Below are positions 6,678-32,000 of a stretch of 32,000 nt of DNA, in pieces. Position numbers and translations under genes: made by a program. The notes beneath the pieces are model-generated. The model searched no databases. It was given only the letters and a program-made list of their open reading frames with translations, and was not told where the DNA came from. Source of the DNA: Desulfotalea psychrophila LSv54. Its GTDB lineage: Bacteria > Desulfobacterota > Desulfobulbia > Desulfobulbales > Desulfocapsaceae. Numbering within the stretch: the first letter of the stretch is position 1; the number at the start of each line of letters is the position of its first letter. Location of the stretch: positions 1,950,001-1,982,000 of the forward strand of contig NC_006138.1 in NCBI RefSeq assembly GCF_000025945.1, read 5' to 3'.

Positions 6678-6679
6678 TC

Positions 6680-14721: not shown

Positions 14722-14769
14722 TTTTTTTTTACTCAGGGTTAAAAAATTTGTACCGCAAAGGCAACATTC

Positions 14770-14796: not shown

Positions 14797-14839
14797 ATAA
14801 ACGAGTTTGTGGAATTTGGCATGTAAAAAAAAGGATGTT

Positions 14840-15665: not shown

Positions 15666-15692
15666 GAGACGCGATAAATCGACGTCTCTACG
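15666..15692 (-). repeat. REP-like palindromic element, copy 3 (inverted)
   Basis: gagacgcgataaatcgacgtctctacg is the exact reverse complement of copy 1. It contains the TAG stop (15690..15688) of the FG-GAP gene. Confidence 0.75.
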
Positions 15693-19036: not shown

Positions 19037-20289
19037 GCAATACACCAGTTCTCGGTTATGTTCTCAAGGGCTATCCTCGCCTGTCCGAGACATTCATTTC
19101 CAATGAAATCCTTCTTCTCGAAGAGATGGGAACGAAGATGCATCTCTTTTCCATGCGCCACCCACGGGAAAAGATCTGCCATCCATCGGTGCAGCAAATA
19201 GTGGCCGGGGTTACCTACCTGCCCACGGAACTGCTGGATGATTTTCCCCGTCTGCTTGCGGCCAATATGTCTCTTGCCGGGCGTGAGCCTGCCAGGTACA
19301 GGAAGGCCCTCCTCTATGCGGCAGGGCTTTTTAAAGAGAAGGGGAAGGTTGCCACCATTAAGCACTTCCTGCAGGCTGGGTTTTTGGTCAATACCATGGA
19401 GGAAAAGGGCTTGAATGTGCAGCAACTTCACGGTCATTTTGCCCATTCGCCTACCTCGGTTACCCTCTTTGCCTCCATGCTGGCAGACATTCCATTTAGC
19501 TTTACCGCCCATGCCAAGGATATCTATACCTCCAGTGTCGCCACTCTTCGGGAGAAGATGGAACGAGCCTCCTTTGTGGCCACCTGTACAAAGTATAATG
19601 ATGTCTATCTTGCCGATCTGCGCAGAGAGATAGATTGTCCCATCCATACCATCTATCACGGTATCAATATCTCCCTCTTTCATAATGATAACTCTGGGCA
19701 TCCACCTCAGCCACCCTATAGGATTCTTACCGTGGCCAGGCTTACAGAGAAAAAGGGTCTGCCAACTCTGTTCCAAGCCCTGAAGATACTGAAGGAGAGG
19801 GGGATTGAATTTCAGCATCAGCTCATTGGCGACGGCGATGACCGGCAGACTGTTCTGGCATATATTAAGGAGCTGGGACTTGAGGAGCAGTGCCATTGGT
19901 TGGGAGCCTGCACCCATACGGAGGTCTTGGAGGAATTTTCTCGCAGCCATCTCTTTGCCCTCAGCTGTAAGATCGCCGAAAATGGCGACCGGGATGGAGT
20001 ACCCAATGTTCTGGTGGAAAGCCTTGCCATGGGCGTTCCCGCCATCTCAACCACGGTTTCCGCGATCCCGGAACTGCTTCACCATGAGGAGACAGGCTAT
20101 CTGGTTGAACCGGATCAGCCAGAGGAGTTGGCCGACGGTATAGAGAGGATGCTCACCGACCTGCCTCTGCGTAAAAATATAATCGAGCAGGGTCGTCTCT
20201 TTGTTGAACAGTACTTCGATAATAGGGTGCAGACCAAAAAACTGCAGGAGGTCTTTCTCCAGGATAATCCCGCCCTGCAGAGGGGATAG
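19033..20289 (+). CDS. GT4-family glycosyltransferase (WcaL-like)
   Basis: 418 aa. N-terminal YPRLSETFISNEI and C-terminal GVPNVLVESLAMGVPAISTTVSAIPELL (E-x7-E region). ATGA start/stop overlap with the upstream gene (19033-19036). Confidence 0.85.
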   Translation: MSNTPVLGYVLKGYPRLSETFISNEILLLEEMGTKMHLFSMRHPREKICHPSVQQIVAGVTYLPTELLDDFPRLLAANMSLAGREPARYRKALLYAAGLFKEKGKVATIKHFLQAGFLVNTMEEKGLNVQQLHGHFAHSPTSVTLFASMLADIPFSFTAHAKDIYTSSVATLREKMERASFVATCTKYNDVYLADLRREIDCPIHTIYHGINISLFHNDNSGHPPQPPYRILTVARLTEKKGLPTLFQALKILKERGIEFQHQLIGDGDDRQTVLAYIKELGLEEQCHWLGACTHTEVLEEFSRSHLFALSCKIAENGDRDGVPNVLVESLAMGVPAISTTVSAIPELLHHEETGYLVEPDQPEELADGIERMLTDLPLRKNIIEQGRLFVEQYFDNRVQTKKLQEVFLQDNPALQRG

Positions 20290-20296
20290 CTCTCCT

Positions 20297-20914
20297 ATGC
20301 AAAGTGCAGATTTTTTTCTCCTTCGCCATGGAGAGACGGAGTGGAATCGGGAGAAGAGGATCCAGGGTTGCCAGGATTCACCGCTTACCGCTACCGGTAG
20401 CCAGACGTCAGCCCTTTGGGGGCCCTTGCTGCAGCGCTATTCATTCGATCATCTCTTTTCTAGCCCTCAGGGTAGGGCCCAGGCAACGGCTGCGATTATT
20501 AATCGCTCTCTTGGTCTTGAAACTATTGTTCATAGGGCTCTACGAGAACAGGATTGGGGCCTCTGGGAGGGCCTCACCCGTGCCGAGGTGGAGGTACATT
20601 TTCCCGGCGAGCTGCAAAGGCAGATGGATCGAGGCTGGGATTTTCAGGCGCCAGCGGGCGAATCCCGGCGTCAGGTACAGCTCAGGGCAGAACAGGCCAT
20701 TCGCCATATCTCTCACCAACACCCCGGTGGCACCTTTCTCCTTATCTGTCATCAGGGCCTTATTAAATCTTTACTCTATGCCATCCTCGGTCGGGATTTT
20801 CTGCCCACGGAAGAACAGGTGCTTGAAAAAAATTCCCTGCAAAAAATATCCCTTCGGCCCGGTGGATCTCTGCAGATAGAGGCCCTCAATATCAGGCCTC
20901 CATCCCTCCCTTAA
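20297..20914 (+). CDS. histidine phosphatase (phosphoglycerate mutase-like) family protein
   Basis: Start set at ATG 20297. FFLLRHGETEWN (RHG motif), and a second catalytic His in LLICHQG. Confidence 0.85.
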   Translation: MQSADFFLLRHGETEWNREKRIQGCQDSPLTATGSQTSALWGPLLQRYSFDHLFSSPQGRAQATAAIINRSLGLETIVHRALREQDWGLWEGLTRAEVEVHFPGELQRQMDRGWDFQAPAGESRRQVQLRAEQAIRHISHQHPGGTFLLICHQGLIKSLLYAILGRDFLPTEEQVLEKNSLQKISLRPGGSLQIEALNIRPPSLP

Positions 20915-20926
20915 GGTAAGAATAAT

Positions 20927-22087
20927 ATGAAAATTGCATTTTACTGTCAGCATATACTGGGCATAGGCCACTTTCAGCGCAGTCTTCTTCTCTGTCGCGC
21001 CCTCCTCGCCCGAGGACATCGTCTGACCCTGATACTCGGCGGTCCTGAGATAGAGGTGACTGATTCTCGTATTGAGGTGCTACAACTGCCCGGACTGCGG
21101 ATGGATGCAGAGTTTGGCGGTTTGCTTCCTTGTGATGAGGGAGCAGGCCTTGCCGATATCAAGGAGCAGCGACAAAAAATGCTCTATCAATTTTTCCAAG
21201 AGGAAGAGCCGGATATCTTTATTACCGAACTCTATCCCATGGGCAGAAAGGCCTTTCGCTTTGAACTCGACCCTGTCCTGCAGGGGATCGACCAGGGCAG
21301 CCTTGCTCCCTGTTTCTGTTGTTCCAGTGTGCGGGATATTCTGGTGGAAAAGAGTTCGGGCAGGGAAAAATTTGAGGAGCGAGCCGTTAAGACATTGAAC
21401 AGGTACTTTGATGGTCTTCTCATTCATGCCGATGCAAATATTATCTCTTTAGACGAGACCTTTGCCCGTACTGCGGAGGTTGTAATACCTAAATACTATA
21501 CGGGGTTTATTGCCCCGGAGATGGCGGCAAGAGGGGGAGGGGTAGCTCAAAAAGAGGATGACCTCCCCTTGGTTATTGCCTCCATCGGTGGTGGCAGTGT
21601 TGGCGGTGAACTCCTTGAGGCAGTGGCCAGTGCCAGTCAGGAGGGTACGTTTCGTCTGAAGATATTTTGTGGACGCTATAGCTCGGCTGAGCTGAAATTA
21701 CGTCTGGAGCAGTACCGATCGCCACTCATTGAAATTGTGACTTTCAGTCATGATTTCCAGAGGGAGATGGAGGCGGCGGATCTTTCTATCTCCATGGCAG
21801 GCTATAACACCTGTATGAACATTCTTCGGGCCGGAACGCCTGCTCTTCTCTATCCCTTCCAGCAGAACAGGGAACAGGGGTTACGGGTGAAAAAGCTTGG
21901 CATCTACCGGGAAATACAGATCCTGTCCGAGGCTGATCTGCCGGCGACGAGGCTCAGGGAACGGATTGAAGAGATGCTGGGCTATGAAAAATTTATGAGT
22001 AAGGTCGAGCTGGATGGAGCGATGAACAGTGCCCTGCAGGTAGAGGCATGGTTTGAAAAATTTACAGCAGAGGATCATAATGCCTAA
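20927..22087 (+). CDS. glycosyltransferase, second COG4671 / GT28-C-terminal paralogue
   Basis: MKIAFYCQHILGIGHFQRS parallels YSHDTYGLGHIRR of the 17831 gene. AADLSISMAGYNTCMNIL parallels AADLVISMGGYNTICEIL. Confidence 0.75.
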   Translation: MKIAFYCQHILGIGHFQRSLLLCRALLARGHRLTLILGGPEIEVTDSRIEVLQLPGLRMDAEFGGLLPCDEGAGLADIKEQRQKMLYQFFQEEEPDIFITELYPMGRKAFRFELDPVLQGIDQGSLAPCFCCSSVRDILVEKSSGREKFEERAVKTLNRYFDGLLIHADANIISLDETFARTAEVVIPKYYTGFIAPEMAARGGGVAQKEDDLPLVIASIGGGSVGGELLEAVASASQEGTFRLKIFCGRYSSAELKLRLEQYRSPLIEIVTFSHDFQREMEAADLSISMAGYNTCMNILRAGTPALLYPFQQNREQGLRVKKLGIYREIQILSEADLPATRLRERIEEMLGYEKFMSKVELDGAMNSALQVEAWFEKFTAEDHNA

Positions 22088-22874
22088 GGTTTCAAATATT
22101 TATCGAAAAAAATGGGATCTTGATCAGCTGGAGGAGAGATTTCGCCGAGCAGTTAACCGAGGCTGCAAACGATCCGGGCAGGTCTTTGTTTTTTTCCGTG
22201 CCGATGATATTGCTATCCCCTCCGTCGGATTTACCCGTTTGGCAGAGATTTTTAACAGGCACCAGGCACCACTCTGTCTTGCCCTTGTCCCCTCTTGGCT
22301 TAATCAGAGCCGCTTTGCTCAACTGCTTGAGATCACCGGGGAGAGTGAGAGGTGGTGTTGGCATCAGCATGGCAGACGGCATCGTAATTTTGAACCTACG
22401 GGGAAAAAACAGGAGTTTGGTCCCGAGCGTGGAGTGGCGGTTGGCCAGCAGTTAGAATTGGGTTGGCAACGTCTTGAGGCTATTCTGGGGCAGAGGCTGG
22501 AGCCTTTTTTTACTCCCCCGTGGAACCGCTGTAGTCAGCAGACTCTCGACGCTCTTGAAGAGCAGAGGTTTTCGGCCATATCGAGAAGCCGTGGCGCTCA
22601 ACCACAGAGCTCCGCTTGTCTGCCGGATCTTGCCATCAATGTCGATCTCCATACCAGAAAGGAGGAGGATCCCGAAGCTTCACTGTCTAAACTCCTCGAA
22701 GAGCTGGAGGAGAGCCTTGCCACGGGCTGTGCGGGGATTATGATTCACCATAGGTGTATGAACGGCTCTGCCTTTGCCATACTTGATCTTCTTCTCGCTA
22801 TTTTACAGGAAGAGAGGGGGCTTAAAATGGGTACCTTTCGCGAGTTGGTCGAGCAGGAAAATAAGATATCTTAG
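22080..22874 (+). CDS. NodB/CE4-like polysaccharide deacetylase family protein (tentative)
   Basis: Start set at ATG 22080, an 8-nt overlap with the upstream stop. FFRADDI resembles NodB motif 1 (TFDDG) and HQHGRRH resembles motif 2 (HxxxH). Similarity is weak, so the product call is tentative. The ORF itself is well supported by its coupling to the upstream gene. Confidence 0.45.
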   Translation: MPKVSNIYRKKWDLDQLEERFRRAVNRGCKRSGQVFVFFRADDIAIPSVGFTRLAEIFNRHQAPLCLALVPSWLNQSRFAQLLEITGESERWCWHQHGRRHRNFEPTGKKQEFGPERGVAVGQQLELGWQRLEAILGQRLEPFFTPPWNRCSQQTLDALEEQRFSAISRSRGAQPQSSACLPDLAINVDLHTRKEEDPEASLSKLLEELEESLATGCAGIMIHHRCMNGSAFAILDLLLAILQEERGLKMGTFRELVEQENKIS

Positions 22875-22891: not shown

Positions 22892-22920
22892 TTGACCTGG
22901 GCAGGAAATTTTCCTAAAAT
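22892..22920 (+). promoter_or_regulatory. candidate sigma70 promoter of the ABC/FtsX cluster
   Basis: TTGACC (22892-22897), an exact 17-nt spacer, then TAAAAT (22915-22920), about 40 nt upstream of ATG 22963 in the only sizeable intergenic gap (88 bp) of the 17.8-32 kb block. Confidence 0.45.
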
Positions 22921-22962
22921 TGAAACTGACAATAATTTTAAAGATCTTCTTCCAGGGCCATT

Positions 22963-23598
22963 ATGAGACGTCTTGTTGTTCTTCCCTTTTCAAAATCGGT
23001 ACAGATGGCATGTCAATCCCTACGTGCCCGGGCCCTGCGCTCGGCCATCACCACCATGAGTCTGGTCTTGGCGGTTGCCTTTTTAAGCTATAGTCAGGTC
23101 GGTAATATTATTATTCAACAGCTGGCAGGCTCAGGGGATAGCGAGATAGTTGGCGAGTTGCAGGCACTGGGCTATACGGGAGATGTGGCGGCTGCTGCTA
23201 AACAGCGCTGGATAGTCTTTCTCTCCCTTTTGGTATGTGTTGTCGGCATCATTAATGCCCAGATCATGTCTGTTACCGAACGCTTTCGGGAGATTGGCAC
23301 CCTTAAATGTCTGGGCGCTCTGGATAGTTTTGTTGTCCGTGTTTTTGTCTTGGAGGCAGGTATTCAGGGGCTGGTGGGATCCATTTTCGGTGCCATTGTC
23401 GGTCTCTTGGTGGCAACAGGTACTGCACTTTTTCGTTTTGGCTCGCCGGTTCAGGCAGCATTTTTTTCTATAGAAGTTTTGATTTCATTTATTATAACCT
23501 TGGCCATTGGCACCGGATTGAGTCTCATTGGAGCGCTCTATCCTGCTATTATCGCTGCTCGCATGCAACCCGTTGAGGCCATGCGTCGGGAGCAATAA
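22963..23598 (+). CDS. minimal FtsX-family ABC permease (4 TM, almost no periplasmic domain)
   Basis: 211 aa. LRARALRSAITTMSLVLAVAFLS (TM1), only about 35 residues to TM2, then the FtsX core IMSVTERFREIGTLKCLGALDSFVVRVFVLEAGIQGLVGSIFG and a C-terminal ...YPAIIAARMQPVEAMR. Confidence 0.8.
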   Translation: MRRLVVLPFSKSVQMACQSLRARALRSAITTMSLVLAVAFLSYSQVGNIIIQQLAGSGDSEIVGELQALGYTGDVAAAAKQRWIVFLSLLVCVVGIINAQIMSVTERFREIGTLKCLGALDSFVVRVFVLEAGIQGLVGSIFGAIVGLLVATGTALFRFGSPVQAAFFSIEVLISFIITLAIGTGLSLIGALYPAIIAARMQPVEAMRREQ

Positions 23599-23615
23599 CT
23601 TTTTAGGGATAAAAG

Positions 23616-24365
23616 ATGAGGCATAAGCATAAAAAAAACATTGTTCGGGTGAGTGCTGTAACCAAGGATTTCGATCTTGGTAAGATGGTGGTCCATGTCC
23701 TCAAGGGAATTGATCTTGAAATAGAGGAGGGGAAGTATATCTCTATCATGGGACCATCAGGCTCTGGAAAATCTACCCTTTTTAATATGATAGGTGGCCT
23801 TGATAAACCAACCTCGGGCAAGGTCTATATCGATGAGGTAGATATCGCTCAGCTCGATGCCTATGAACTAGCCTGGCTGAGGTGTAGGAAAATTGGTTAT
23901 ATCTTTCAGACATTTAACCTTATTCCGGTAATGACTGCCCTGGAGAACGTTACCATTCCCATGACCTTTGCCGGCATGTCCGATGACGATGCCCTCAAGA
24001 GGGGGATGAAACTGCTGGCTCAGGTGGGACTGGAGGGACGGCATGAGCATAAACCATCAGAACTCTCTGGCGGTCAACAACAGCGGGTGGCCATTGCCCG
24101 AGCCCTGGCTAATCAGCCATCCATTATTCTGGCCGATGAACCGACGGGTAACCTTGATTTGAGCACAGGCGAAGATGTTATAGCCCTGCTTAAAGATCTC
24201 AGTGCCAGGTTGGGTGTTACCGTTATCTCTGCCACCCACGACTATAAGATGCTTAATGTTTCCGATCAGGTGATATGGATACGGGATGGAAAGGTCGATA
24301 AAATTCAAGGCCGTGAAGAACTCGATATCCGTACTGGTGGTCTTGGAGAGATCCATGAGGCATAG
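23616..24365 (+). CDS. ABC transporter ATP-binding protein, LolD/MacB type
   Basis: Walker A GPSGSGKST, Q-loop, signature LSGGQQQRVAIARAL, Walker B IILADEPTGNLD, H-loop SATHD. Confidence 0.95.
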   Translation: MRHKHKKNIVRVSAVTKDFDLGKMVVHVLKGIDLEIEEGKYISIMGPSGSGKSTLFNMIGGLDKPTSGKVYIDEVDIAQLDAYELAWLRCRKIGYIFQTFNLIPVMTALENVTIPMTFAGMSDDDALKRGMKLLAQVGLEGRHEHKPSELSGGQQQRVAIARALANQPSIILADEPTGNLDLSTGEDVIALLKDLSARLGVTVISATHDYKMLNVSDQVIWIRDGKVDKIQGREELDIRTGGLGEIHEA

Positions 24366-27300
24366 AGTCGCCTCCCTCGTTCTGCTCGTAGTTGCTCTTC
24401 TTTGCCCTATTCTGGGCCTCTCTATTCCTGCCGGGGCCTCTTCTCTGCGTAGTCTGGTCTCAGACCTGAGTGGATGGGAGAGTCGTAGTACGGCAAGCGC
24501 TGGCGCTGAGCAGGCGGCCAGCTATATTGAGAAGAGACTCTCCGACCTGGGCCTATCGCCCCAGAGTTATTACTATCAGATAGCAAAGAGGCAGGTGGGA
24601 CAATCCACCCTGCAGATGGATGGTAGGCAGTACCCTCTCAAACCATTTTTTTATAATGCCATTACCCCCGAGAGTAGTGGGGAGACTCTCACCGGGCCTG
24701 TATATTATCTGGGCTCAGGTAGCCTTGCTCAACTGGACGGCATACCTATAAAAGACTCTATCATCCTCCTCGATTTTGCCTCGGCCAGAAACTGGCAGAG
24801 AGTTGCCTCCCTGGGAGCAAGGGCTATTATCTATCTCGGCCGTGGAGGGGAGAGTAGATTTTCCTTTCAGGAGAAGCAAGAGCTGAGTCCCCTGCAACTG
24901 CCCTGTTACTGGATGCCCAGAGAGGATGCTGAGGCATTTTTTGCCCGTCCGCTCAAGAAAGCAGATAGGGTTGCTAGCCAGATAAAGATCAGTACAGATA
25001 TAGGTTGGGAAAACAGCCTGAGTCGTAATATCTATGCCTTTATCCCCGGCACGGAGAGTGGCCAAGATCAGGAACTCCTCCTTCTTGAGGCATTTTACGA
25101 TGACGAGGAGATGGTCTATCGGGACTCTCCCGGAGCAGATGCCGCCCTCTCGATTGCCTCCCTGCTTGATGTTGCAGAAAATTTGGTGCAGACGCCGCCT
25201 AAACGTTCGGTTTTGCTTTTGGCCACCAGTGGTAATAGCCAGTCCTTGGCCGGTATGCGTGATGCCATCTGGAGTATAGTAAGTAGGGGCAAGGACCTGA
25301 AAAAAGAGGATTCCAGGTTGAATGGGGGCATTGCCCAAAAAGAACAGACACTGCTTGCCCTGCAAGATATTCGTTTTCCCCTGCCGGCAGATAAGGTGCG
25401 GGACAGACTTCTGCGTGGGGCAATAGCTCAGACCCTGAGCAGTCATATAGACAACCTCTCTCGCCGGGTGATGGAACTTCGTCTTGGAGAAAAGAGCAAG
25501 CTGCGCCGGCAGCAGATAAAAAAATTGGCCGCCGAACGTCTGCTCTATAAGCAACTCAGTTGGCAGAGTCACTACCATGATCTCGATGGCAAAAAGGAGA
25601 GGCTGCTCCAGGGCCTGCTCCCTCAAGTAATTCTCTCCTATAAAAGGGGGATTGAGGGCTTGGCTGTGCAGAAAAAATGCCTTGATTCGGCCCTTGCCTT
25701 TCGCCGGCAGGTAAAGGAGTATCGGCTGGCCGCCGCCATCAGCCTCCACCTTTCGGGGCATGGGACAGGCATTGGTGCATTTCACCGTGGTTGGCTCTAT
25801 CCCCTTAAATCCTCCGTTAACCGTACGGGTATCTATAGTCTCATCGCCGACGTTCTGGAGGAATCTAATCTTCAAGGGGGGAGGGCAGAGTATCAAAACA
25901 CCCTGCGTCCCACTCTGATGCGGAGTTGGAACTCCTGGTTTCTGGATAAACCCGCTTTGGGTGGAGAGGTCAGCTCTCTTGCCGGCCTGTTGGGCATTAG
26001 TCTGGTAACCACCGGAGATGCCAGGGCCCTGTGGGGAACGCCGGGAGATCTGGCAAAAAATATTGACTGGGATTATGTAGAGGGACAGAATGAACTGCTG
26101 CTTAGCCTGGTTAGGGGGCTCTGTGCCGCCCCTAGACTTGATATGGGCAGATTTCCCCGTAAGGGTTTTGCTCAACTGACAGGTAGGGCCAATCTTCTCC
26201 TGCAGGGAGAGCTCTTTGCCAGTTTTCCGGCTAAGGGAACAACCGTCCTCGCCTATCAGGGATTGGCCCGATACTATGCCATGGTTGATGGAGAGGGTTT
26301 ATTTCGGATTGTAGGCCTTGCCGATAAAAAGAATGTTGGAGATAAGGTTATTCTTGAGGGCTATCGTTTTGCCCCGGATGGCCGGGCCATTTGGGCCATA
26401 GATAAAAGGGATACGGGCAAGAGCAATTATAGAGTGAAGATGCTGCGGAAAAACATGCAGACGGATCTGACCATGTTCGCCTGCCAGCAGATCACCATCT
26501 TCGACCTTCTTGAACCACGTAATCTTGACTATATGACCAAAATACAGGTCTATGATGGCAGACGGGACGCCCCGCCTCAGCACTATTGGTACAGCAGGAT
26601 AGATACAAGGAAATCAGCTATCTGCTCTGTCTTTACAGAACCGGGAACGCCAGTTAAGCTCACCCTGTCAGACACCGTCCTTACCACCAAGATGCTCCTC
26701 ACTAACAGCCATGAGGAGAAGGTGGGAGGGGTAGGATTTAAGGGCAGTGATTATCCGCAGATAAATAGAACAGCGTATGCTGCTGCCAGGGACGCTTGGG
26801 CCTTGCTCGGGCCCCGAATAAAGAATCTCCAGAGCCATGGTATCTATGATAGCAGGATTGATGATCTCAAGGTGCGCGGTTTGCTTGCCCTGCACAATGC
26901 AGAGAGGGATTATCAAAACCTGAAATACTCATCGGCTCAGGAGGAGGCGGCCAGCTCTCTTGCCCTATCGACCAGGGTCTATACCGAGGTGGAAAAGACG
27001 CAGAAGGATGTTCTCTTTGGAGTGCTCTTTTATATAGCCCTCTTTGTCCCCTTTGCCTTTGTCATGGAACGCTTCATCTTTAACTATGCCCATATCTATA
27101 AGAGGATATCTGCCTTTCTCTTAATACTGTTCCTGCTTATTGCAATTATTTATCAGGTGCATCCGGCCTTTGAGCTTGCCTACAGTCCGCTTATTATTGT
27201 TCTCGCCTTTTTTATTATAGGGCTGTCACTGTTGGTTACCCTGATTATCTTCTTTCGTTTTGAAAGGGAGATGATCCGTCTTCAGAACCAGGCCAATCAC

Positions 27301-29109
27301 TATAGGCCGGAGGAGATCAGCCATTGGAAGGCCTTTGTCGCGGCCTTTTTTCTTGGTGTTTCTAATCTGCGTCGGCGGCGCTTGCGCACCATGCTGACCT
27401 GTCTGACCCTTATTATTCTCTCTTTTACCATCATGAGCTTTACCACCATTAAATCCGGTCAACAGCATCTCCGGCTGCCCTTTGGCGCCAAGGCCCCTTA
27501 TCAGGGTCTGCTTTTGGAAAAGAGGGATTGGAAAACCCTGCCGACGGATGCCACGGATATTCTTAAGAGCAGTATGGCAGGTAGTAGTAAAGCCGCGCCA
27601 CGGGCATGGTTGGAGGCGGTTCCTCCAACAAGACCTGTGCATGTTCCTCTGACTCGTGGGAATAAAAATATTGAAGTTAATGGCGTACTTGGTCTCAGTG
27701 TTAATGAGGCGGAGGTGACAGGCATATCCCGTCTCCTCACCACTGGTCATTGGTTTACCTCAGATAATGCTCAAAGTGTTATTCTGGCCGATGAGATTGC
27801 TGCAAAATTAGGGATTACTGGCATGAAGGATGCCCGGATACTGCTGTGGGGTATTCCATTTACTGTTATTGCCACCTTTGATAGTAAGGGCCTTGAGGCC
27901 ATGGCTGATCTTGATGGTGAAGCCCTTACCCCTGTCATCTTTCCTGAAGAACAGCAGCAGGAGTTGAGCGATGCCGAGCAGGAGGCCGTGGAACAGGGAG
28001 ATGATATACAGAGTTTTCAGAGCAGATATCAGCATATTGGTGCAGATAAAACTATCATCATTCCTGTCAATACCCTCCTGGCCGCCGGTGGTAGTCTGAA
28101 GAGTATTGCCATTCGTCCTGATTATCAGGAGGGGCAGGCTGGTGAGATTACTCGTGAGGCTGGCCTATTGGTAGATCGGTTCAACCTTGTCATCTTTGCC
28201 GGCGATGAGGATGGGGTCTGGCTCTATAATGCAACGGACACCATTAGCTATAGCGGTGTGCCCAATATTATTATTCCCCTTCTTATCTCTGTTTTTATTG
28301 TCCTTAATACCATGATCAGCTCTGTGCAGGAACGTCGGGGGGAGATAGGTGTTTATACCTCCATTGGCCTTGCCCCATCCCATGTAGCCTTTCTCTTTGT
28401 GGCGGAGGCCCTTGCCCTGGCGGTGGTTTCCGTGGTCATCGGCTATCTATTGGCCCAGATATCGGCCTACTTTCTCTCCACCACCTCCCTCTGGCAAGGC
28501 ATTACTGTTAATTACTCCTCTCTTGCTGGCGTTGCCTCCATGTTTCTTGTTATCATGGTGGTGCTTATCTCCGTTATCTATCCGGCCAGGATGGCCAGTA
28601 AAATTGCCATCCCCGATGTCAATAAGACCTTTTCTCTGCCCAAGGACGACGGGCACAGTATGAAGATTACCCTGCCCTTTCTTCTTAAGCAGAATGAGGC
28701 CGATAGTCTCGGCGGTTTCCTCTTCTCATATTTTAATGCTCACCTGGAAGTTTCCCATGGACTCTTTTCAACGGCCAAGCTCTCCCTTGAGAAAAATAGT
28801 GATAAGGAGGTCTACTGTTCCATTTGCTGCCAGACCTGGCTTGCCCCCTTTGATCTTGGCATTATGCAAGAGGTGGAGGTCACCTTGGAAAATGATAAGA
28901 CCTTTACCGATGATGATTTCTTGTCTGTTCAGGTGCATATAAGGCGGGAGGCTGGGGAGGTTGCCGCTTGGCGACGAATGAATACGGTTTTCTTCCATCA
29001 GTTGCGCAAACAACTCCTCGTCTGGCGCTCCCTTGATGGGGCGGGCCATTGCGAACAGGAGGCAATTTTTGCCGAAAAAACCGGCCTGCAAGGGAGCAGT
29101 CAATCATGA
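24355..29109 (+). CDS. 1,584-aa fusion protein: signal peptide + M28/PA peptidase-like ectodomain (apparently inactive) + 3 TM + FtsX permease with MacB-like periplasmic domain + cytoplasmic tail
   Basis: Start set at ATG 24355 (GGAGAG 4 nt upstream, 11-nt overlap with the ATPase gene). Signal peptide MRHRVASLVLLVVALLCPILGLSIPAGA. PA-like GPVYYLGSG...IKDSIILLDFA...SLGARAIIYLG. M28-like NIYAFIPG...LLLLEAFYDD...SPGADAALSIASLLDVAENL...SVLLLATSGNSQSLAGMRD. Hydrophobic TMs at about 27010-27260. FtsX TM1 LRRRRLRTMLTCLTLIILSF. MacB-PCD-like VILADEIAAKLGI...IPFTVIATFD. FtsX core ISSVQERRGEIGVYTSIGLAPSHVAFLFVAEALALAV ... YPARMASKI. Confidence 0.8.
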   Translation: MRHRVASLVLLVVALLCPILGLSIPAGASSLRSLVSDLSGWESRSTASAGAEQAASYIEKRLSDLGLSPQSYYYQIAKRQVGQSTLQMDGRQYPLKPFFYNAITPESSGETLTGPVYYLGSGSLAQLDGIPIKDSIILLDFASARNWQRVASLGARAIIYLGRGGESRFSFQEKQELSPLQLPCYWMPREDAEAFFARPLKKADRVASQIKISTDIGWENSLSRNIYAFIPGTESGQDQELLLLEAFYDDEEMVYRDSPGADAALSIASLLDVAENLVQTPPKRSVLLLATSGNSQSLAGMRDAIWSIVSRGKDLKKEDSRLNGGIAQKEQTLLALQDIRFPLPADKVRDRLLRGAIAQTLSSHIDNLSRRVMELRLGEKSKLRRQQIKKLAAERLLYKQLSWQSHYHDLDGKKERLLQGLLPQVILSYKRGIEGLAVQKKCLDSALAFRRQVKEYRLAAAISLHLSGHGTGIGAFHRGWLYPLKSSVNRTGIYSLIADVLEESNLQGGRAEYQNTLRPTLMRSWNSWFLDKPALGGEVSSLAGLLGISLVTTGDARALWGTPGDLAKNIDWDYVEGQNELLLSLVRGLCAAPRLDMGRFPRKGFAQLTGRANLLLQGELFASFPAKGTTVLAYQGLARYYAMVDGEGLFRIVGLADKKNVGDKVILEGYRFAPDGRAIWAIDKRDTGKSNYRVKMLRKNMQTDLTMFACQQITIFDLLEPRNLDYMTKIQVYDGRRDAPPQHYWYSRIDTRKSAICSVFTEPGTPVKLTLSDTVLTTKMLLTNSHEEKVGGVGFKGSDYPQINRTAYAAARDAWALLGPRIKNLQSHGIYDSRIDDLKVRGLLALHNAERDYQNLKYSSAQEEAASSLALSTRVYTEVEKTQKDVLFGVLFYIALFVPFAFVMERFIFNYAHIYKRISAFLLILFLLIAIIYQVHPAFELAYSPLIIVLAFFIIGLSLLVTLIIFFRFEREMIRLQNQANHYRPEEISHWKAFVAAFFLGVSNLRRRRLRTMLTCLTLIILSFTIMSFTTIKSGQQHLRLPFGAKAPYQGLLLEKRDWKTLPTDATDILKSSMAGSSKAAPRAWLEAVPPTRPVHVPLTRGNKNIEVNGVLGLSVNEAEVTGISRLLTTGHWFTSDNAQSVILADEIAAKLGITGMKDARILLWGIPFTVIATFDSKGLEAMADLDGEALTPVIFPEEQQQELSDAEQEAVEQGDDIQSFQSRYQHIGADKTIIIPVNTLLAAGGSLKSIAIRPDYQEGQAGEITREAGLLVDRFNLVIFAGDEDGVWLYNATDTISYSGVPNIIIPLLISVFIVLNTMISSVQERRGEIGVYTSIGLAPSHVAFLFVAEALALAVVSVVIGYLLAQISAYFLSTTSLWQGITVNYSSLAGVASMFLVIMVVLISVIYPARMASKIAIPDVNKTFSLPKDDGHSMKITLPFLLKQNEADSLGGFLFSYFNAHLEVSHGLFSTAKLSLEKNSDKEVYCSICCQTWLAPFDLGIMQEVEVTLENDKTFTDDDFLSVQVHIRREAGEVAAWRRMNTVFFHQLRKQLLVWRSLDGAGHCEQEAIFAEKTGLQGSSQS

Positions 29110-31112
29110 AAAATGAACAGTCCTCTGTCCCCGAAGTGGGGAATCGTGTTCGCCTGCGAGCCCCAATCATTGGCCTGCTCTTTGCCATGGGTATCTGCTT
29201 GCTCACGCCCTACAATAATATTTATCTACAGGCAACTCCGCTTGGTGGGGGGCATTTCCCCCTTGCTCCCTTTTTCTTGTTTCTAGGCCTCTCTGGTCTT
29301 ACCATCCTCTTGCAGGTTATCAGGGGCGGGGCAACTCTTTTGAGCGGTGGAGAGTTACTGACAATTTGGATTCAAGCGGTAATAGGATCCGGTATTGCCT
29401 ATACCGGTTTTGCCAGAACCTTTTTGATTAATATAACGACCCCTCTTCATTTTGCCGGTACAGAGAGTCGCTGGCAGGAAAATATTGACCCCCTTATCCC
29501 TGCGGGGCTTTTGCCCACGGACAAAGGGGCCATAGAGCTTTTGTATAATGGTATCCCCGGAGCACGAGAGGACAGCTGGCTCTCCATGCTTGGACAAATA
29601 CCCTGGCAGGCTTGGTTGCAGCCACTTTTCAGCTGGTCTGTCTATATCCTCCTGGCCTATCTGGTTATGATATTTTTGCTTAATATTATTGTCCGCCAGT
29701 GGATCTTTTATGAGCGGATGAATTTTCCGCTCTTGAAGGTACCACGGATGATTGCCCATGCTGTTAGTGAGGGAGAGGGGCTTGCATTTTTTACCAACCG
29801 TTTCTTGCTGATGGGTGTTCTTCTGCCGGTAATCCTCCACCTGCTGAATGGTCTGAACCTCTACTATCCATCGGTCCCCCAGATGCCGACCCTGCTCCTT
29901 GCCGGGCCTTATTTTGGCCAAACAGGAATTTTTTCTGGATTTCATAAGCTCAAGCTCTATTTCTTTCCTGCCTTTATAGGTTTTGCCTTTCTAACCTCAA
30001 GGCAAATTTCCTTCTCTTTTTGGTTTTTCTTTTTGGGTGGAGGGCTCTTTTATGGTCTCCTCAGTCTTCTCGGTTATTCACTGCCCGCCTCGGAACTGGG
30101 GGTAACCTTTGGCCCCACCATTACCCGGCCTGAAGAGATGCAGATGCTCGGAGCCTATGGAGTCTTTTTCTTCTCTCTGGTTTGGTTGGCCCGCTATCAT
30201 CTGCTGGATGTGACCCGTAGGTCTATCCTCTGGCAGAAGGCAGACAGTCCCGGGCCCGAGTGGCTCGATGTCAGGATTAGTTTCTGGGGTGCCATCATTG
30301 GCACAATAGCCCTTGTTTGTTGGTATGTATACTATGGCACTGCGCCCTTGGTTGCCGTTCTTCTTGTTTTCTCTTTTTTCATGATAACTATCGTTGCTAC
30401 CCGTGTTATTTGTCAGGGAGGCCTTGCCTATTTCACCCTGACAGCTGCTCCCATGGATGGCCTGATAGCCTTTTTGGGGCCTAAGTTTTTTACAGGGATA
30501 AACGCTCTCATTGCCGGTATCAGTCAAAAGGTGCTCTTTGTTGATCTGCGCGAATCGCTGATGCCCTCTCTTCTGCAAGCGGCCAGGGTGCAGCGAAGCA
30601 ATTGGCCCCGTGGGCTTCTCTTCTCCTCAATTCTTCTAACCATTGTTCTCTCTCTCTTTACCTCCTGCCTTGCCATGCTCACCCTCTGCTATCGTTTTGG
30701 TATCCGAGAGCTGCAACAGGATTGGGCCGCCACCACCAGTATTGCTGTCTATGAAAATATTTCCCGCCTGATGAATACTCCGCCGGAGACCGGGAGCTGG
30801 GTCTTTGGTTTTACCATGATGGGGGCGGTGGTTATGTTACTGCTCGTTGTCTGCTATCAGCGTCTGCACTGGTGGCCCCTTCATCCCCTCGGTTATCTCA
30901 CTGTTTATAGTTCGGCGATGCGTATTCTCTGGTTGAGCTTTTTTCTTGGCTGGTTATGCAATGCGCTCTGTATGCGCTACGGTGGAGTACGTCTCTTTAA
31001 AAAACTCCAGTTCTTTTTTATTGGTTTGATTATAGGTGACTTTAGCATGGGTGGTATTTGGGCCATTATCGGTCTCTTTACCCGTATGAGTTATCAGGTC
31101 CTGCCAAACTAA
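29106..31112 (+). CDS. large polytopic inner-membrane protein, function unknown
   Basis: Start set at ATG 29106 (ATGA overlap with the upstream stop). 668 aa and hydrophobic throughout, with more than 12 predicted TM stretches by eye. I recognise no transporter signature. Confidence 0.7.
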   Translation: MKNEQSSVPEVGNRVRLRAPIIGLLFAMGICLLTPYNNIYLQATPLGGGHFPLAPFFLFLGLSGLTILLQVIRGGATLLSGGELLTIWIQAVIGSGIAYTGFARTFLINITTPLHFAGTESRWQENIDPLIPAGLLPTDKGAIELLYNGIPGAREDSWLSMLGQIPWQAWLQPLFSWSVYILLAYLVMIFLLNIIVRQWIFYERMNFPLLKVPRMIAHAVSEGEGLAFFTNRFLLMGVLLPVILHLLNGLNLYYPSVPQMPTLLLAGPYFGQTGIFSGFHKLKLYFFPAFIGFAFLTSRQISFSFWFFFLGGGLFYGLLSLLGYSLPASELGVTFGPTITRPEEMQMLGAYGVFFFSLVWLARYHLLDVTRRSILWQKADSPGPEWLDVRISFWGAIIGTIALVCWYVYYGTAPLVAVLLVFSFFMITIVATRVICQGGLAYFTLTAAPMDGLIAFLGPKFFTGINALIAGISQKVLFVDLRESLMPSLLQAARVQRSNWPRGLLFSSILLTIVLSLFTSCLAMLTLCYRFGIRELQQDWAATTSIAVYENISRLMNTPPETGSWVFGFTMMGAVVMLLLVVCYQRLHWWPLHPLGYLTVYSSAMRILWLSFFLGWLCNALCMRYGGVRLFKKLQFFFIGLIIGDFSMGGIWAIIGLFTRMSYQVLPN

Positions 31113-31169
31113 GTTTTCGAGCCACCCTTTAGGGATAATGAAAGCCAGCAACCTCTTCTTTGGAAAATT

Positions 31170-32000
31170 ATGTACGATGATAAAGAGCTAAAAGAATATA
31201 GGGACCTGCTCCCGACTCCTACTCATTTTGAGGAGGGATTTGATTGGAAAACCATTATAGGCGCTGTTTTTATTGGTTTTTTGATGATGCCGGGATCCAT
31301 GTATCTGCAGTTGGTTATTGGCCAGGGTATTGGCCCTGCCGCCCGTTGGGTGACCATTATTCTTTTTGCTGAGATTGCCAAGAGGGCCCATTCGGAGCTT
31401 AAACAGCAGGAAATATTTTTGCTCTACTATATGGCAGGTGCAGCCCTTGCCTCGCCATTTTCCGGTCTTCTCTGGAACCAGTATCTGGTCCAGTCCGATG
31501 CCGCCAGGATGCTTGGGGTTACCGAATTCATCCCTGCCTGGATAGCTCCTTCTCCGGAATCAGAGTCCATGTTGGAGAGGACTTTTTTTCATCGAGACTG
31601 GATGATTCCCATCCTTCTCCTGGTGGGTTCCCAGATCATCCAGCGTATCGATCATTTTGGCTTGGGTTATGCCCTCTATAGAATCACCTCAGATGTGGAA
31701 AAACTTCCATTTCCCATGGCTCCGGTGGCGGCTCTTGGCACCATGGCCCTGGCTGAATCGGCCGAGGAGAAGGAGGGGAAGGGGAGTTGGAAGTGGAAGG
31801 TCTTTTCCATAGGGGCGGTCATAGGTCTGGGCTTTGGTGCCATCTATGTTGTTCTACCCATCGTCTCGGGACTCATCTTTACTGAACAGATCCGCCTCAT
31901 CCCCATTCCCTGGATTGAGTATACCCGCTATACCGAAGACATTCTGCCCGCTGTGGCCACCGGTCTCCAACTTGATCTTGGTCTGGTCTTTATCGGCATG
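31170..32000 (+). CDS. polytopic membrane protein, function unknown (5' part; continues beyond the window)
   Basis: Not in the ORF track because it is open at the right edge. ATG 31170, frame open for 277 codons to 32000. My translation starts MYDDKELKEYRDLLPTPTHFEEGFDWKTIIGAVFIGFLMMPGSMYLQLVIGQGIGPAARWVTIILFAEIAKRA... and shows several hydrophobic helices. Confidence 0.7.
   Translation, partial: MYDDKELKEYRDLLPTPTHFEEGFDWKTIIGAVFIGFLMMPGSMYLQLVIGQGIGPAARWVTIILFAEIAKRAHSELKQQEIFLLYYMAGAALASPFSGLLWNQYLVQSDAARMLGVTEFIPAWIAPSPESESMLERTFFHRDWMIPILLLVGSQIIQRIDHFGLGYALYRITSDVEKLPFPMAPVAALGTMALAESAEEKEGKGSWKWKVFSIGAVIGLGFGAIYVVLPIVSGLIFTEQIRLIPIPWIEYTRYTEDILPAVATGLQLDLGLVFIGM

What the first reader, a model, noticed from the sequence alone, without database searches (positions are those of the whole stretch)
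22892..32000. FtsX/MacB-type ABC module with an effector-like ectodomain fused to one permease half, plus two orphan giant membrane proteins
Five co-directional genes sit behind a near-consensus promoter (TTGACC-17-TAAAAT).
- A 211-aa FtsX permease with almost no periplasmic loop.
- A LolD/MacB-like ATPase.
- A 1,584-aa protein. After its signal peptide it has about 860 periplasmic residues (M28/PA-like), 3 TM, a complete FtsX permease with a MacB-type periplasmic core domain, and a roughly 170-aa cytoplasmic tail with no motif I recognise.
- 668-aa and >277-aa polytopic membrane proteins.

Coupling is tight: an 11-nt overlap at 24355-24365 and an ATGA overlap at 29106-29109.

Characterised FtsX/MacB systems (FtsEX with EnvC/PcsB/CwlO, LolCDE, MacAB) transmit ATPase motion to a separate periplasmic partner. 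Here a hydrolase-like domain is fused covalently to one half of what looks like a LolC/LolE-style heterodimer. I do not know of a characterised system with this architecture. The inferred topology is self-consistent: N-out after signal-peptide cleavage, 3+4 TM, C-in.
Basis: partly seen in the sequence, partly recalled or inferred. Interest (0 to 1): 0.8.

Follow-up and report, generated by a model that had tools for sequence, protein, structure and literature searches.

The report
ABC motor fused to dead peptidase
Sulfate-reducing bacteria share an uncharacterised ATP-driven membrane machine in which one subunit carries a large periplasmic domain shaped like an aminopeptidase that has lost its catalytic residues, followed by two distant relatives of oligopeptide (OPT) transporters.

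Summary
The window is Desulfotalea psychrophila. Coordinates, overlaps, topology and domain calls are all confirmed.

The 1,584-aa ORF is not an assembly artefact. Full-length homologues occur at 480 places in species-representative genomes, and the best 80 are all Desulfobacterota. A small FtsX gene and an ATPase gene precede it in 66 of 66 loci with enough flank.

An AlphaFold model of the ectodomain (pLDDT 92) matches PA-domain M28 aminopeptidases, transferrin receptor and GCPII. In all 72 homologues examined the catalytic glutamate is gone. Of the five zinc ligands, only the bridging aspartate is kept. The domain is therefore a pseudo-peptidase, more likely a binding or adaptor module than a hydrolase effector.

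The two "orphan" membrane proteins are not orphans. One is Pfam DUF6785/DUF6784, and its model's only significant fold match is the OPT transporter HvYS1. The other belongs to a very conserved family (79-92% identity) whose distant members hit Pfam OPT.

The five genes are the core of a roughly 13-gene cluster. It also holds glycosyltransferases, a histidine phosphatase, a DUF2334 protein and a PqqD-like protein, and it recurs in Maridesulfovibrio.

Verdict: a real, uncharacterised variant of type VII (MacB/FtsX) ABC systems. Substrate and mechanism are inferred only.

The parts
22892..22920 (+). sigma-70-like promoter match, TTGACC-17-TAAAAT
   Evidence: 10/12 match in the 88-nt gap before the small FtsX gene. 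The number of such sites in the region is at chance level, so function is unproven.
22963..23598 (+). Small FtsX-family permease half (211 aa, 4 TM) with no periplasmic core domain
   Evidence: Pfam FtsX E 3.4e-16. Hydropathy gives 4 TM helices with about 33 aa between TM1 and TM2. The TM2-TM3 loop motif SVTERxxEIG is shared with the large protein. It lies upstream of the large gene in 66/66 loci.
23616..24365 (+). ABC ATPase of the LolD/MacB/FtsE clade (249 aa)
   Evidence: ABC_tran E 1e-35. NCBIfam LolD scores 231 bits, below its equivalog cut-off of 308; MacB and FtsE models score next. Identity across the loci with a hit has median 83%.
24355..29109 (+). 1,584-aa fusion protein: signal peptide, pseudo-peptidase ectodomain, 3 TM, FtsX permease with MacB-type periplasmic core domain, cytoplasmic tail
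   Evidence: Identical to the NCBI D. psychrophila protein, with full-length homologues in at least 120 clusters. Relatives occur at 480 places in GTDB species representatives.
24427..26154 (+). PA-domain plus M28-fold pseudo-aminopeptidase (aa 25-600)
   Evidence: AlphaFold2 model pLDDT 92.1, pTM 0.90. Foldseek: 2ek8 E 4e-20, then BSAP, PaAP, TfR1 and GCPII. The family profile hits the 2ek8 sequence at E 1e-13. The catalytic Glu and the zinc ligands other than the bridging Asp are absent in 72/72 homologues.
25249..25719 (+). About 155-aa helical insertion inside the M28 core (aa 299-455)
   Evidence: DSSP on the model gives four long helices of 26, 31, 22 and 42 residues. This is the least conserved part of the ectodomain, at 31% identity. 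The segment has no counterpart in 2ek8/BSAP: the profile alignments to those sequences cover query positions up to 317-328 and resume near 567.
26155..27009 (+). Beta-rich domain (aa about 601-805) and three-helix stalk (aa 806-885) leading into the membrane
   Evidence: DSSP of the model. The beta-rich part is the best conserved ectodomain segment, at 60% identity. I did not check whether the Foldseek matches extend into this region.
27010..27393 (+). Three extra TM helices (aa 886-965) and an arginine-rich cytoplasmic linker (aa 966-1013)
   Evidence: Hydropathy. 72-74% identity with 44-47% invariant columns, more conserved than any soluble part. Included in the PADLOC PDLC01991 match, so these helices belong to the conserved permease core.
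27394..28599 (+). FtsX permease: TM1, 272-aa MacB-type periplasmic core domain, TM2-4
   Evidence: Pfam FtsX E 2e-13. MacB_PCD 27.0 bits, at the cut-off. PF12704 is precomputed in many homologues. The profile matches MacB 5gko at 1e-8, 5lil (including its periplasmic core domain) and YtrF at 1e-6.
28600..29106 (+). Conserved cytoplasmic C-terminal domain (aa 1416-1584), fold unknown
   Evidence: 40 invariant columns in 8 diverse homologues. No Pfam hit, no PDB sequence hit and no PADLOC hit for the tail alone.
29106..31112 (+). 668-aa polytopic membrane protein, Pfam DUF6785 plus DUF6784, with an OPT-like predicted fold
   Evidence: Pfam E 5e-159 and 4e-36. AlphaFold2 model pLDDT 65, pTM 0.70. 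The only significant Foldseek matches are HvYS1 7wst at E 8.5e-4 and 7wsr at 2.8e-3. It lies directly downstream of the large gene in 64/68 loci.
31170..32000 (+). First 277 aa of a 652-653-aa divergent OPT-superfamily membrane protein
   Evidence: 79-92% identical across orders. NCBI names it 'peptide transporter'. Distant full-length relatives (E 1e-55 to 1e-66) hit Pfam OPT above the cut-off. It lies within 5 kb downstream in 57/60 loci.
17747..22874 (+). Syntenic upstream genes, outside the finding's coordinates: GT28-C-like glycosyltransferase, GT4, histidine phosphatase (about 20294-20914), second GT28-C-like glycosyltransferase, DUF2334
   Evidence: Pfam, the frame check, and synteny in 36-41 of 47 loci plus Maridesulfovibrio.

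Best explanation
The region encodes a type VII (MacB/FtsX-type) ABC machine that is widely conserved in Desulfobacterota, together with two OPT-superfamily membrane proteins.

Shown:
- One ATPase gene sits between two different FtsX-family permease genes.
- The small permease has no periplasmic core domain.
- The large one has a 7-TM core (3 extra TM helices plus 4 FtsX TM helices), a MacB-type periplasmic core domain, a conserved cytoplasmic C-terminal domain of unknown fold, and an 860-aa N-terminal periplasmic module.
- That module is built on a PA-domain/M28 aminopeptidase fold that is catalytically dead across the family.

Inferred:
- The two permeases form an asymmetric LolC/LolE-like (or split BceB-like) heterodimer with two copies of the ATPase.
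- ATP binding and hydrolysis move the TM1/TM2 stalk and the periplasmic core domain (mechanotransmission). This motion repositions or opens the covalently attached pseudo-peptidase module.
- The module binds a ligand and does not cleave it. The ligand is probably a peptide- or glycopeptide-like envelope molecule or a partner protein.
- The ligand is made by the cluster's cytoplasmic glycosyltransferases, phosphatase and deacetylase-like enzyme. It crosses the inner membrane through the two OPT-like proteins.
- The ABC module therefore acts on the periplasmic side as an extraction, hand-off or activation device. It resembles LolCDE-LolA, MacAB or FtsEX-EnvC with the adaptor fused in cis. It is not a regulated hydrolase.
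For: - Architecture and topology.
- PA/M28 fold: a high-confidence model, Foldseek E 4e-20 and profile-to-PDB E 1e-13.
- Active-site loss in 72 homologues. The His ligand is Phe in 72/72. The catalytic Glu is never Glu. The ligand Glu is Ala, Gly, Ser or Asn in 69/72. The second His is Gly in 69/72. Only the bridging Asp is kept, in 68/72.
- Both permeases keep the FtsX TM2-TM3 loop motif. I take this to be the ATPase-docking loop from what I know of MacB-family structures.
- The trio is invariant in 66/66 loci, and DUF6785 follows in 64/68.
- Translational coupling.
- OPT affinity of the two downstream proteins.
- The same 13-gene cluster occurs in Desulfotalea sp. and in Maridesulfovibrio hydrothermalis.
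- The membrane-embedded parts are the most conserved, at 74-84% identity, as expected for a machine whose core is the transmission apparatus.
- Characterised type VII systems act through periplasmic partners (abstracts of PMC12646458 and PMC7668044).
Against: - No direct evidence exists for heterodimer formation, for ligand identity or for any interaction with the OPT-like proteins.
- In four Desulfobacteraceae-type loci the ABC trio stands alone without the OPT-like genes, so the coupling is not obligatory.
- The link between DUF6785 and OPT rests on a medium-confidence model (pLDDT 65) and TM-scores of about 0.4.
- Profile comparison of the two downstream families is not significant: 9.8% probability.
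- A retained Asp and a family-conserved His at two former ligand positions leave open a non-canonical single-metal site.
- The glycosyltransferase genes may belong to a separate pathway that is merely adjacent.
Confidence: 0.5

Rival explanations
1. One reading: the ectodomain is an active M28 aminopeptidase or hydrolase effector, and the ABC motor switches its activity.
For: The fold is M28/PA. Pfam Peptidase_M28 passes its cut-off on the fragment. Some databases name homologues 'M28 family peptidase'.
Against: The catalytic Glu is absent in 72/72 homologues. The His ligand is Phe in 72/72. The ligand Glu and the second His are replaced in at least 69/72. The window protein has Asn-Ser where active enzymes have Glu-Glu. 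The Pfam match covers only profile positions 1-72 of 193.
Confidence: 0.06
2. It is a conventional MacB-like exporter of a glycolipid, glycopeptide or peptide made by the neighbouring genes. The ectodomain is a passive scaffold or a bridge towards the outer membrane or peptidoglycan, and the OPT-like proteins are independent importers or recyclers.
For: The best PDB sequence matches of the permease core are MacB proteins. Glycosyltransferases and a PqqD-like gene are syntenic. Many loci also carry a classical ABC_membrane exporter.
Against: No membrane-fusion protein (MacA-like) or TolC-like gene appears among the Pfam annotations of the called genes in two full clusters. I did not search for them beyond those tables. 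The 860-aa ectodomain is well conserved, up to 60% identity in its beta-rich part, which argues for a specific role. The ATGA coupling to DUF6785 suggests stoichiometric co-production.
Confidence: 0.22
3. It is a signal-regulated or sensory device. The cytoplasmic tail is a ligand sensor (CARF-like, as the PADLOC family name suggests) that gates the ABC motor. The ectodomain acts as a receptor, in the way BceAB-type transporters sense as well as act.
For: The membrane core (aa 878-1463) matches the PADLOC model 'CARF_m8--CARF_LolE_TM' at E 5e-58, and a 'CARF_Beta-galactosidase_LolE_TM' model at 3e-16. The tail is a conserved domain. A cNMP-binding protein is encoded in many of the clusters.
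Against: The tails of six homologues give no PADLOC hit even at E up to 10. They also have no Pfam or PDB sequence hit. The strong PADLOC match stops 48 residues into the tail. I could not read the paper behind the model name, because it is not held.
Confidence: 0.12
4. The five genes are not one functional unit. The ABC trio is a self-contained module, and the two OPT-like genes and the glycosyltransferases are neighbours only by inheritance.
For: The trio occurs alone next to an M48+TPR peptidase and a DUF7796 protein in L054-type loci. The conservation levels differ greatly, at 53% against 87% identity.
Against: The gene order is kept in 64/68 and 57/60 loci across several orders, and in Desulfovibrionia. 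The ATGA overlap links the two genes.
Confidence: 0.1

Closest known systems
MacB of the MacAB-TolC efflux pump (type VII ABC)
   Same: Both have a 4-TM FtsX permease with a periplasmic core domain between TM1 and TM2 and an ATPase of the same clade. MacB proteins are the best PDB sequence matches of the permease part: 5gko at E 1e-8, and 5lil including its periplasmic core domain.
   Different: The ATPase is a separate gene here. The permease pair is heteromeric, and one half lacks the periplasmic core domain. There are three extra TM helices, an 860-aa N-terminal ectodomain and a C-terminal cytoplasmic domain. No MacA-like or TolC-like gene appears among the annotated cluster genes.
LolCDE (lipoprotein release)
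   Same: Two different FtsX-family permeases share one ATPase gene. LolD is the best NCBIfam model for the ATPase.
   Different: Scores are far below the LolC/LolE/LolD equivalog cut-offs: 52 against 362 bits and 231 against 308 bits. Both LolC and LolE have periplasmic domains; here only one half does.
FtsEX-EnvC (also FtsEX-PcsB, FtsEX-CwlO and FtsEX-RipC)
   Same: A type VII ABC motor transmits motion to a periplasmic module. EnvC is itself a catalytically dead metallopeptidase-fold (LytM) adaptor with long helices. The ectodomain here is likewise a dead metallopeptidase fold with a long helical insertion (PMC7668044).
   Different: The partner is fused in cis and has an M28/PA fold, not LytM or CHAP. 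The NCBIfam FtsX models score only 15-24 bits against cut-offs of 225-255. There is no cell-division gene context.
[quoted passage not shown]
   Same: A type VII ABC transporter is associated with a periplasmic hydrolase-fold protein (PMC12646458).
   Different: TesA is a separate, active lipid hydrolase. Here the hydrolase-fold domain is covalently fused and inactive.
BceAB-type transporters (from my own knowledge of the published cryo-EM structure)
   Same: There is an asymmetric pair of FtsX-type TM bundles, only one of which carries the large extracytoplasmic domain, plus extra TM helices.
   Different: In BceB the two bundles are one 10-TM polypeptide. Here they are split into 4 TM and 3+4 TM. 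The ectodomain is unrelated.
Transferrin receptor 1, nicastrin and GCPII; bacterial PA-M28 aminopeptidases (2ek8, BSAP, PaAP)
   Same: All share the M28 core with an inserted PA (apical) domain: Foldseek E 4e-20 to 1e-14 and profile hits. Like TfR1 and nicastrin, the fold is kept but the metal site is lost.
   Different: There is a 155-aa helical insertion, an extra beta-rich domain and a helical stalk. The module is tethered to an ABC permease. Sequence identity is only 9-14%.
OPT (oligopeptide transporter / Yellow Stripe-like) superfamily, e.g. HvYS1
   Same: Distant relatives of the last gene's product hit Pfam OPT. The DUF6785 model's only significant fold match is HvYS1.
   Different: Neither window protein hits Pfam OPT directly. 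To my knowledge no OPT member has been linked to a type VII ABC system. The substrate is unknown.

Membership tests
Type VII ABC (MacB/FtsX superfamily) | FtsX-type 4-TM permease domain (PF02687) | tested here: met
   Small protein E 3.4e-16; large protein E 2.3e-13 at aa 1307-1417.
Type VII ABC (MacB/FtsX superfamily) | Periplasmic core domain between TM1 and TM2: large protein | tested here: met
   MacB_PCD scores 27.0 bits, at the cut-off of 27. PF12704 is precomputed in many homologues. The profile aligns to the periplasmic core domain of MacB 5lil.
Type VII ABC (MacB/FtsX superfamily) | Periplasmic core domain between TM1 and TM2: 211-aa protein | tested here: not met
   Only about 33 residues lie between TM1 and TM2.
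Type VII ABC (MacB/FtsX superfamily) | Adjacent ATPase of the LolD/MacB/FtsE clade | tested here: met
   The best NCBIfam models are LolD, the MacB N-terminal part, DarD and FtsE, at E 1e-68 to 1e-60.
Type VII ABC (MacB/FtsX superfamily) | Dimeric permease with two ATPases, and mechanotransmission without transmembrane transport | not testable with these tools
   This needs a multimer model, cryo-EM or biochemistry.
LolCDE | Equivalog-level similarity to LolC/LolE and LolD | tested here: not met
   lolCE scores 52 bits against a cut-off of 362, and LolD 231 against 308.
FtsEX | Match to the FtsX/FtsE equivalog models | tested here: not met
   The FtsX models score 15-24 bits against cut-offs of 225-255, and FtsE 205 against 265.
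Peptidase M28 | M28 alpha/beta fold with an inserted PA domain | tested here: met
   Foldseek 2ek8 E 3.7e-20 on a pLDDT 92 model. The HMM hits 2ek8 at E 1e-13 over aa 26-317.
Peptidase M28 | Co-catalytic zinc ligands (His, Asp, Glu, Asp, His) and the catalytic Glu | tested here: not met
   In 72 homologues: His is Phe in 72; the catalytic Glu is His, Asn, Gln, Arg or Lys; the ligand Glu is Ala, Gly, Ser or Asn in 69; the second His is Gly in 69; the second Asp is probably His (my own motif alignment). Only the bridging Asp is kept, in 68.
Pfam DUF6785 / DUF6784 | Match above the gathering score | tested here: met
   530.5 and 123.8 bits.
OPT superfamily (product of the last gene) | Direct Pfam OPT (PF03169) match | tested here: not met
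   No Pfam family for the 277-aa fragment or for a full-length orthologue.
OPT superfamily (product of the last gene) | Homology to OPT through intermediate sequences | tested here: met
   Five of eight full-length relatives tested (E 1e-55 to 1e-66 to the family profile) hit PF03169 at 28-64 bits against a cut-off of 25.8.
OPT superfamily (DUF6785 protein) | OPT/YSL fold | tested here: inconclusive
   The only significant Foldseek match is HvYS1 (E 8.5e-4, TM 0.39-0.46), but the model has pLDDT 65. hhalign to the OPT-linked family gives 9.8% probability.
PADLOC 'CARF_m8--CARF_LolE_TM' (PDLC01991) | Permease core with three extra TM helices plus FtsX | tested here: met
   E 4.7e-58; aa 878-1463 against model positions 59-598 of 810.
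PADLOC 'CARF_m8--CARF_LolE_TM' (PDLC01991) | CARF-type sensor domain | tested here: not met
   The tail alone (six homologues) has no PADLOC hit at E up to 10, no Pfam hit and no PDB hit. Its fold was not modelled, so similarity at fold level remains open.

The most novel reading that the evidence does not exclude
This would be a previously unrecognised class of type VII ABC mechanotransducer. An EnvC-like, catalytically dead peptidase adaptor is fused in cis to a 7-TM FtsX core. That core belongs to a wider family in which other ectodomains are swapped in, for example a beta-galactosidase-like one, and which carries a cytoplasmic regulatory tail. The motor would work physically together with two OPT-fold membrane proteins as one envelope machine. 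That machine would export, hand off or activate a glycosylated peptide-like molecule specific to Desulfobacterota. It would be the first functional link between the OPT superfamily and ABC mechanotransmission.
Probability: 0.2. Interest if true: 0.8.

Novelty: new variant of a known kind. Interest (0 to 1): 0.58.

Why it matters
Type VII ABC systems (FtsEX, LolCDE, MacAB, YbbAP) are the model for ATP-driven work on the far side of the membrane. All characterised examples act on separate partners.

This family fuses the partner to the motor, and the partner is a pseudo-enzyme. It would be a natural single-chain system for studying mechanotransmission.

It would also give a first functional handle on bacterial OPT-like proteins and on DUF6785/DUF6784.

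The cluster is found at 480 places in species-representative genomes, and the closest 80 are all from sulfate-reducing lineages that are abundant in marine sediment. Its product is therefore probably a widespread, undescribed envelope component.

Tried and rejected
- The whole-protein Pfam scan of the 1,584-aa protein showed only FtsX. M28 and MacB_PCD appeared only when the protein was scanned in pieces.
- The first genome scan, with a single-sequence query, found nothing. It worked with an alignment.
- Exact-sequence look-ups of the D. psychrophila proteins failed, so I could not see the genes beyond the window end in this genome. I used orthologous loci instead.
- Shallow profiles of the two downstream membrane proteins gave no PDB sequence hits and no mutual similarity.
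- The homologue search for the last gene's product returned only proteins at 81% identity or more. The search of cluster representatives was needed to reach the OPT-positive relatives.
- Tail domain: no Pfam, PDB-sequence or PADLOC match. The CARF idea raised by the PADLOC model name could not be confirmed, and the source paper is not held.
- Anti-phage defence reading: I gave it no further weight. The only PADLOC matches are the generic ATPase and the permease core. The cluster is chromosomal and shows conserved synteny across several orders. No plasmid homologues were found.
- No Rfam element in the window, and no convincing intergenic terminator.
- Literature searches for DUF6785/DUF6784, for FtsX with M28, and for OPT with FtsX and PqqD found no description of this system.
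- An alignment of the conserved unknown protein of about 300 aa downstream was uninformative.
- My first Pfam scan of the window's histidine phosphatase used the wrong frame. This was corrected.

Full report
**Source and observation**

The window is from the Desulfotalea psychrophila chromosome. The 1,584-aa product is 100% identical to an NCBI protein of that species on a 3,523,383-bp contig.

The five co-directional ORFs are at the stated coordinates. The 11-nt overlap between the ATPase and the large gene (24355-24365) and the ATGA overlap between the large gene and the next gene (29106-29109) can be read directly. GGAG-type ribosome-binding sites lie upstream of both.

TTGACC-17-TAAAAT is at 22892-22920. 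It is one of 12 such matches in 10 kb, against 9.7 +/- 3.7 in shuffles. It lies in an 88-nt gap after five further co-directional genes that are syntenic in other genomes. The transcription start is therefore open. Rfam finds nothing in the window.

**The ABC module**

The 211-aa protein is a 4-TM FtsX-family permease (Pfam E 3e-16) with about 33 residues where MacB, LolC and FtsX have their periplasmic domain.

The 249-aa protein is an ATPase of the LolD/MacB/FtsE clade. Its best models are LolD, MacB, DarD and FtsE, all below their equivalog cut-offs.

The 1,584-aa protein has these parts (hydropathy; Pfam and NCBIfam):

| Residues | Part |
|---|---|
| 6-24 | signal peptide |
| 25-885 | ectodomain |
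| 886-965 | three TM helices |
| 966-1013 | arginine-rich linker |
| 1014-1032 | FtsX TM1 |
| 1033-1304 | periplasmic domain; hits MacB_PCD at the gathering score (27.0 bits) |
| 1305-1408 | FtsX TM2-4 |
| 1416-1584 | cytoplasmic tail |

A profile of 24 homologues matches the MacB sequences 5gko and 5lil (the latter including its periplasmic core domain) and YtrF. The topology with the N-terminus outside and the C-terminus inside is self-consistent.

Both permeases keep the FtsX TM2-TM3 loop motif (SV[TQ]ERxxEIG). From my knowledge of MacB-family structures this loop contacts the ATPase, so both look like competent partners of it.

One ATPase gene with two unlike permease genes is the LolCDE arrangement. 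Having only one half with an ectodomain resembles BceB in split form (my own knowledge of that structure).

**The ORF is real and the family is conserved**

At least 120 homologue clusters are 1,461-1,676 aa long at 44-64% identity. They come from Desulfobulbales, Desulfobacterales and Maridesulfovibrio.

A scan of one genome per GTDB species found 480 places that encode a relative. The best 80 are all Desulfobacterota MAGs or isolates.

In these loci the small FtsX and the ATPase precede the large gene in 66 of 66 cases with enough flank.

Within the large protein the membrane parts are the most conserved. The three extra TM helices are at 74% identity with 47% invariant columns, and the FtsX TM helices at 74-84%. 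The ectodomain segments are at 31-60%, the periplasmic core domain at 45% and the tail at 41%.

**The ectodomain**

An AlphaFold2 model of aa 25-885, built with a 72-sequence alignment, has mean pLDDT 92.1 and pTM 0.90.

Foldseek against the PDB gives PA-domain M28 aminopeptidases first: 2ek8 at E 3.7e-20, then BSAP and PaAP. Transferrin receptor 1 and GCPII follow. The family profile also hits the sequences of 2ek8 (E 1e-13) and BSAP, more weakly TfR1, and nicastrin only marginally (E about 0.09).

The HMMER alignment to 2ek8 lets the active-site positions be read. I counted them in 72 homologues:

| Active M28 position | In this family |
|---|---|
| His ligand (HxD motif) | Phe in 72/72 |
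| Bridging Asp | kept in 68/72 |
| Catalytic Glu | His, Asn, Gln, Arg or Lys; never Glu |
| Ligand Glu | Ala, Gly, Ser or Asn in 69/72 (Asp in 2, Met in 1) |
| C-terminal His ligand (YHTPxDT motif) | Gly in 69/72 |
| Remaining Asp ligand | probably His (68/72), by my own motif alignment |

The window protein reads Asn-Ser where active enzymes have Glu-Glu. This is a pseudo-peptidase, as TfR1 and nicastrin are.

The model adds three features to the M28 core. There is a helical insertion of about 155 aa (four helices of 22-42 residues), a beta-rich domain at aa about 601-805, and a three-helix stalk that enters the membrane.

**The two 'orphan' membrane proteins**

The 668-aa protein is Pfam DUF6785 plus DUF6784 (E 5e-159 and 4e-36). 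No paper in the library mentions these families. Its AlphaFold2 model is of medium quality (pLDDT 65, pTM 0.70). The only significant PDB matches are the two structures of the barley Yellow Stripe 1 transporter, an OPT-superfamily member (E 8.5e-4 and 2.8e-3, TM 0.39-0.46).

The last ORF is the start of a 652-653-aa protein that NCBI names 'peptide transporter'. It is 79-92% identical across orders, far more than its neighbours. It has no Pfam family itself. A profile search of 1.8 billion cluster representatives found 1,046 related clusters. Five of eight distant full-length relatives tested hit Pfam OPT above the cut-off.

Both proteins are therefore best read as divergent OPT-superfamily members. 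That is firm for the last gene and tentative for DUF6785. The two families are not detectably similar to each other, apart from a weak colinear hhalign match.

**Context**

DUF6785 follows the large gene in 64 of 68 loci. The OPT-like gene lies within 5 kb in 57 of 60.

Upstream, in the window and in 36-41 of 47 loci, are two GT28-C-like glycosyltransferases, a GT4, a histidine phosphatase (window about 20294-20914) and a DUF2334 protein. A divergently transcribed FG-GAP repeat protein lies beyond them.

Downstream of the OPT-like gene, the loci carry unknown proteins of about 200 aa and about 300 aa and a PqqD-like protein. Many loci also have an ABC_membrane exporter and a cNMP-binding protein there.

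The same cluster is present in Maridesulfovibrio hydrothermalis, which belongs to a different class; there the unknown protein of about 200 aa is absent.

In four Desulfobacteraceae-type loci the ABC trio stands alone, after an M48+TPR peptidase and a DUF7796 protein. The trio is thus the minimal module.

**An unexpected lead**

PADLOC's model 'CARF_m8--CARF_LolE_TM' matches aa 878-1463 at E 5e-58. A 'CARF_Beta-galactosidase_LolE_TM' model matches the FtsX part at 3e-16.

The 3TM+FtsX core therefore belongs to a wider catalogued family. Going only by that model's name and its 1,791-position length, some members may carry a different N-terminal domain.

The tail itself gives no hit in PADLOC, Pfam or PDB sequences. 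I could not read the paper that I recall as the source of these model names (a 2020 CARF-superfamily census).

**Mechanism**

The architecture is shown. The rest is inferred.

I think the two permeases and two ATPases form an asymmetric type VII ABC motor. Its ATP cycle would move the periplasmic core domain and, through it or through the helical stalk, the fused pseudo-peptidase module. That module would bind a peptide-like ligand or a partner protein and would not cleave it.

The closest functional parallel is FtsEX-EnvC. There the partner is also a dead metallopeptidase fold with long helices, but it is a separate protein (PMC7668044).

The OPT-like proteins and the cytoplasmic sugar-modifying enzymes suggest a peptide- or glycopeptide-like substrate. 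It would be made inside the cell, carried across the inner membrane, and then handled on the periplasmic side by the ABC module.

The alternatives are listed in the rival explanations:
- a plain MacB-like exporter with a scaffold ectodomain;
- a sensor gated by the tail;
- an ABC trio with no functional link to its neighbours;
- an active peptidase, which the residue counts make unlikely.

**Novelty**

I found no characterised orthologue and no literature on this system. The annotations are generic: 'FtsX-like permease family protein', 'M28 family peptidase', 'peptide ABC transporter permease'.

It is a member of the type VII ABC superfamily. It differs in the cis-fused pseudo-enzyme ectodomain, the 3+4 TM core, the partner without a periplasmic core domain, the conserved tail and the linkage to OPT-like proteins. 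I rate it a new variant of a known kind, of moderate to good interest.

Noticed in passing
window 31170-32000; full length in L023 18094-20052: The OPT-like protein is 79-92% identical across several orders, while its operon neighbours are 47-67% identical. This is an unusually constrained membrane protein, and it has no Pfam family although the profile search found 1,046 related clusters at 50% identity.
   Followed up: partly
L023 20056-23137, and many other loci: An 857-aa ABC_membrane+ABC_tran exporter whose ATPase domain is interrupted by about 300 residues, together with a 176-aa cNMP-binding protein, is inserted in either orientation between the OPT-like gene and the unknown/unknown/PqqD-like genes.
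   Followed up: partly
L081 18921-20690; L083 19246-20542: Unknown proteins of about 200 aa (with a signal peptide) and about 300 aa, followed by a PqqD-like (peptide-recognition type) protein, are conserved at the 3' end of the cluster. The 200-aa protein is absent in Maridesulfovibrio. No maturase partner or precursor peptide was identified.
   Followed up: partly
L054 5383-14782 (also L060, L062, L078): In some Desulfobacteraceae MAGs the small FtsX, ATPase and large protein stand alone, directly after an M48+TPR (BepA-like) peptidase and a 529-aa DUF7796 protein.
   Followed up: partly
window 20201-20914: The histidine phosphatase gene of the cluster (RHGETEWN motif, probable ATG near 20294) is in this frame. 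The overlapping 20304-20879 ORF from the mechanical list is spurious.
   Followed up: yes
P0370, P0366 (distant relatives of the OPT-like protein): Some family members of 990-1,080 aa carry a PDZ domain or a Reg_prop/beta-propeller insert after profile position about 540.
   Followed up: no
window 26986-28743 (aa 878-1463): There is a strong match (E 5e-58) to the PADLOC model 'CARF_m8--CARF_LolE_TM'. This implies a wider family with the same 3TM+FtsX core. The name of a second matching model suggests that some members carry a beta-galactosidase-like N-terminal domain. The tail here does not match.
   Followed up: partly
window 15688-17493 (- strand): A 601-aa FG-GAP repeat protein is divergently transcribed from the cluster. 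It is syntenic in many loci at 23-33% identity.
   Followed up: no
window 24715-26175 (- strand): A 486-aa antisense ORF lies inside the large gene. I did not test it separately. The sense strand here encodes the conserved ectodomain, so it is most likely a by-product of that coding sequence.
   Followed up: no
window 1-15000: The rest of the window is housekeeping: adenylate kinase, cobA/hemD fusion, CreA, a sugar-nucleotidyl transferase, thiG, a thiH-like radical SAM protein, purH, polyprenyl synthase, a DinG-like helicase and a porin. The cluster therefore starts near 15.7 kb.
   Followed up: yes
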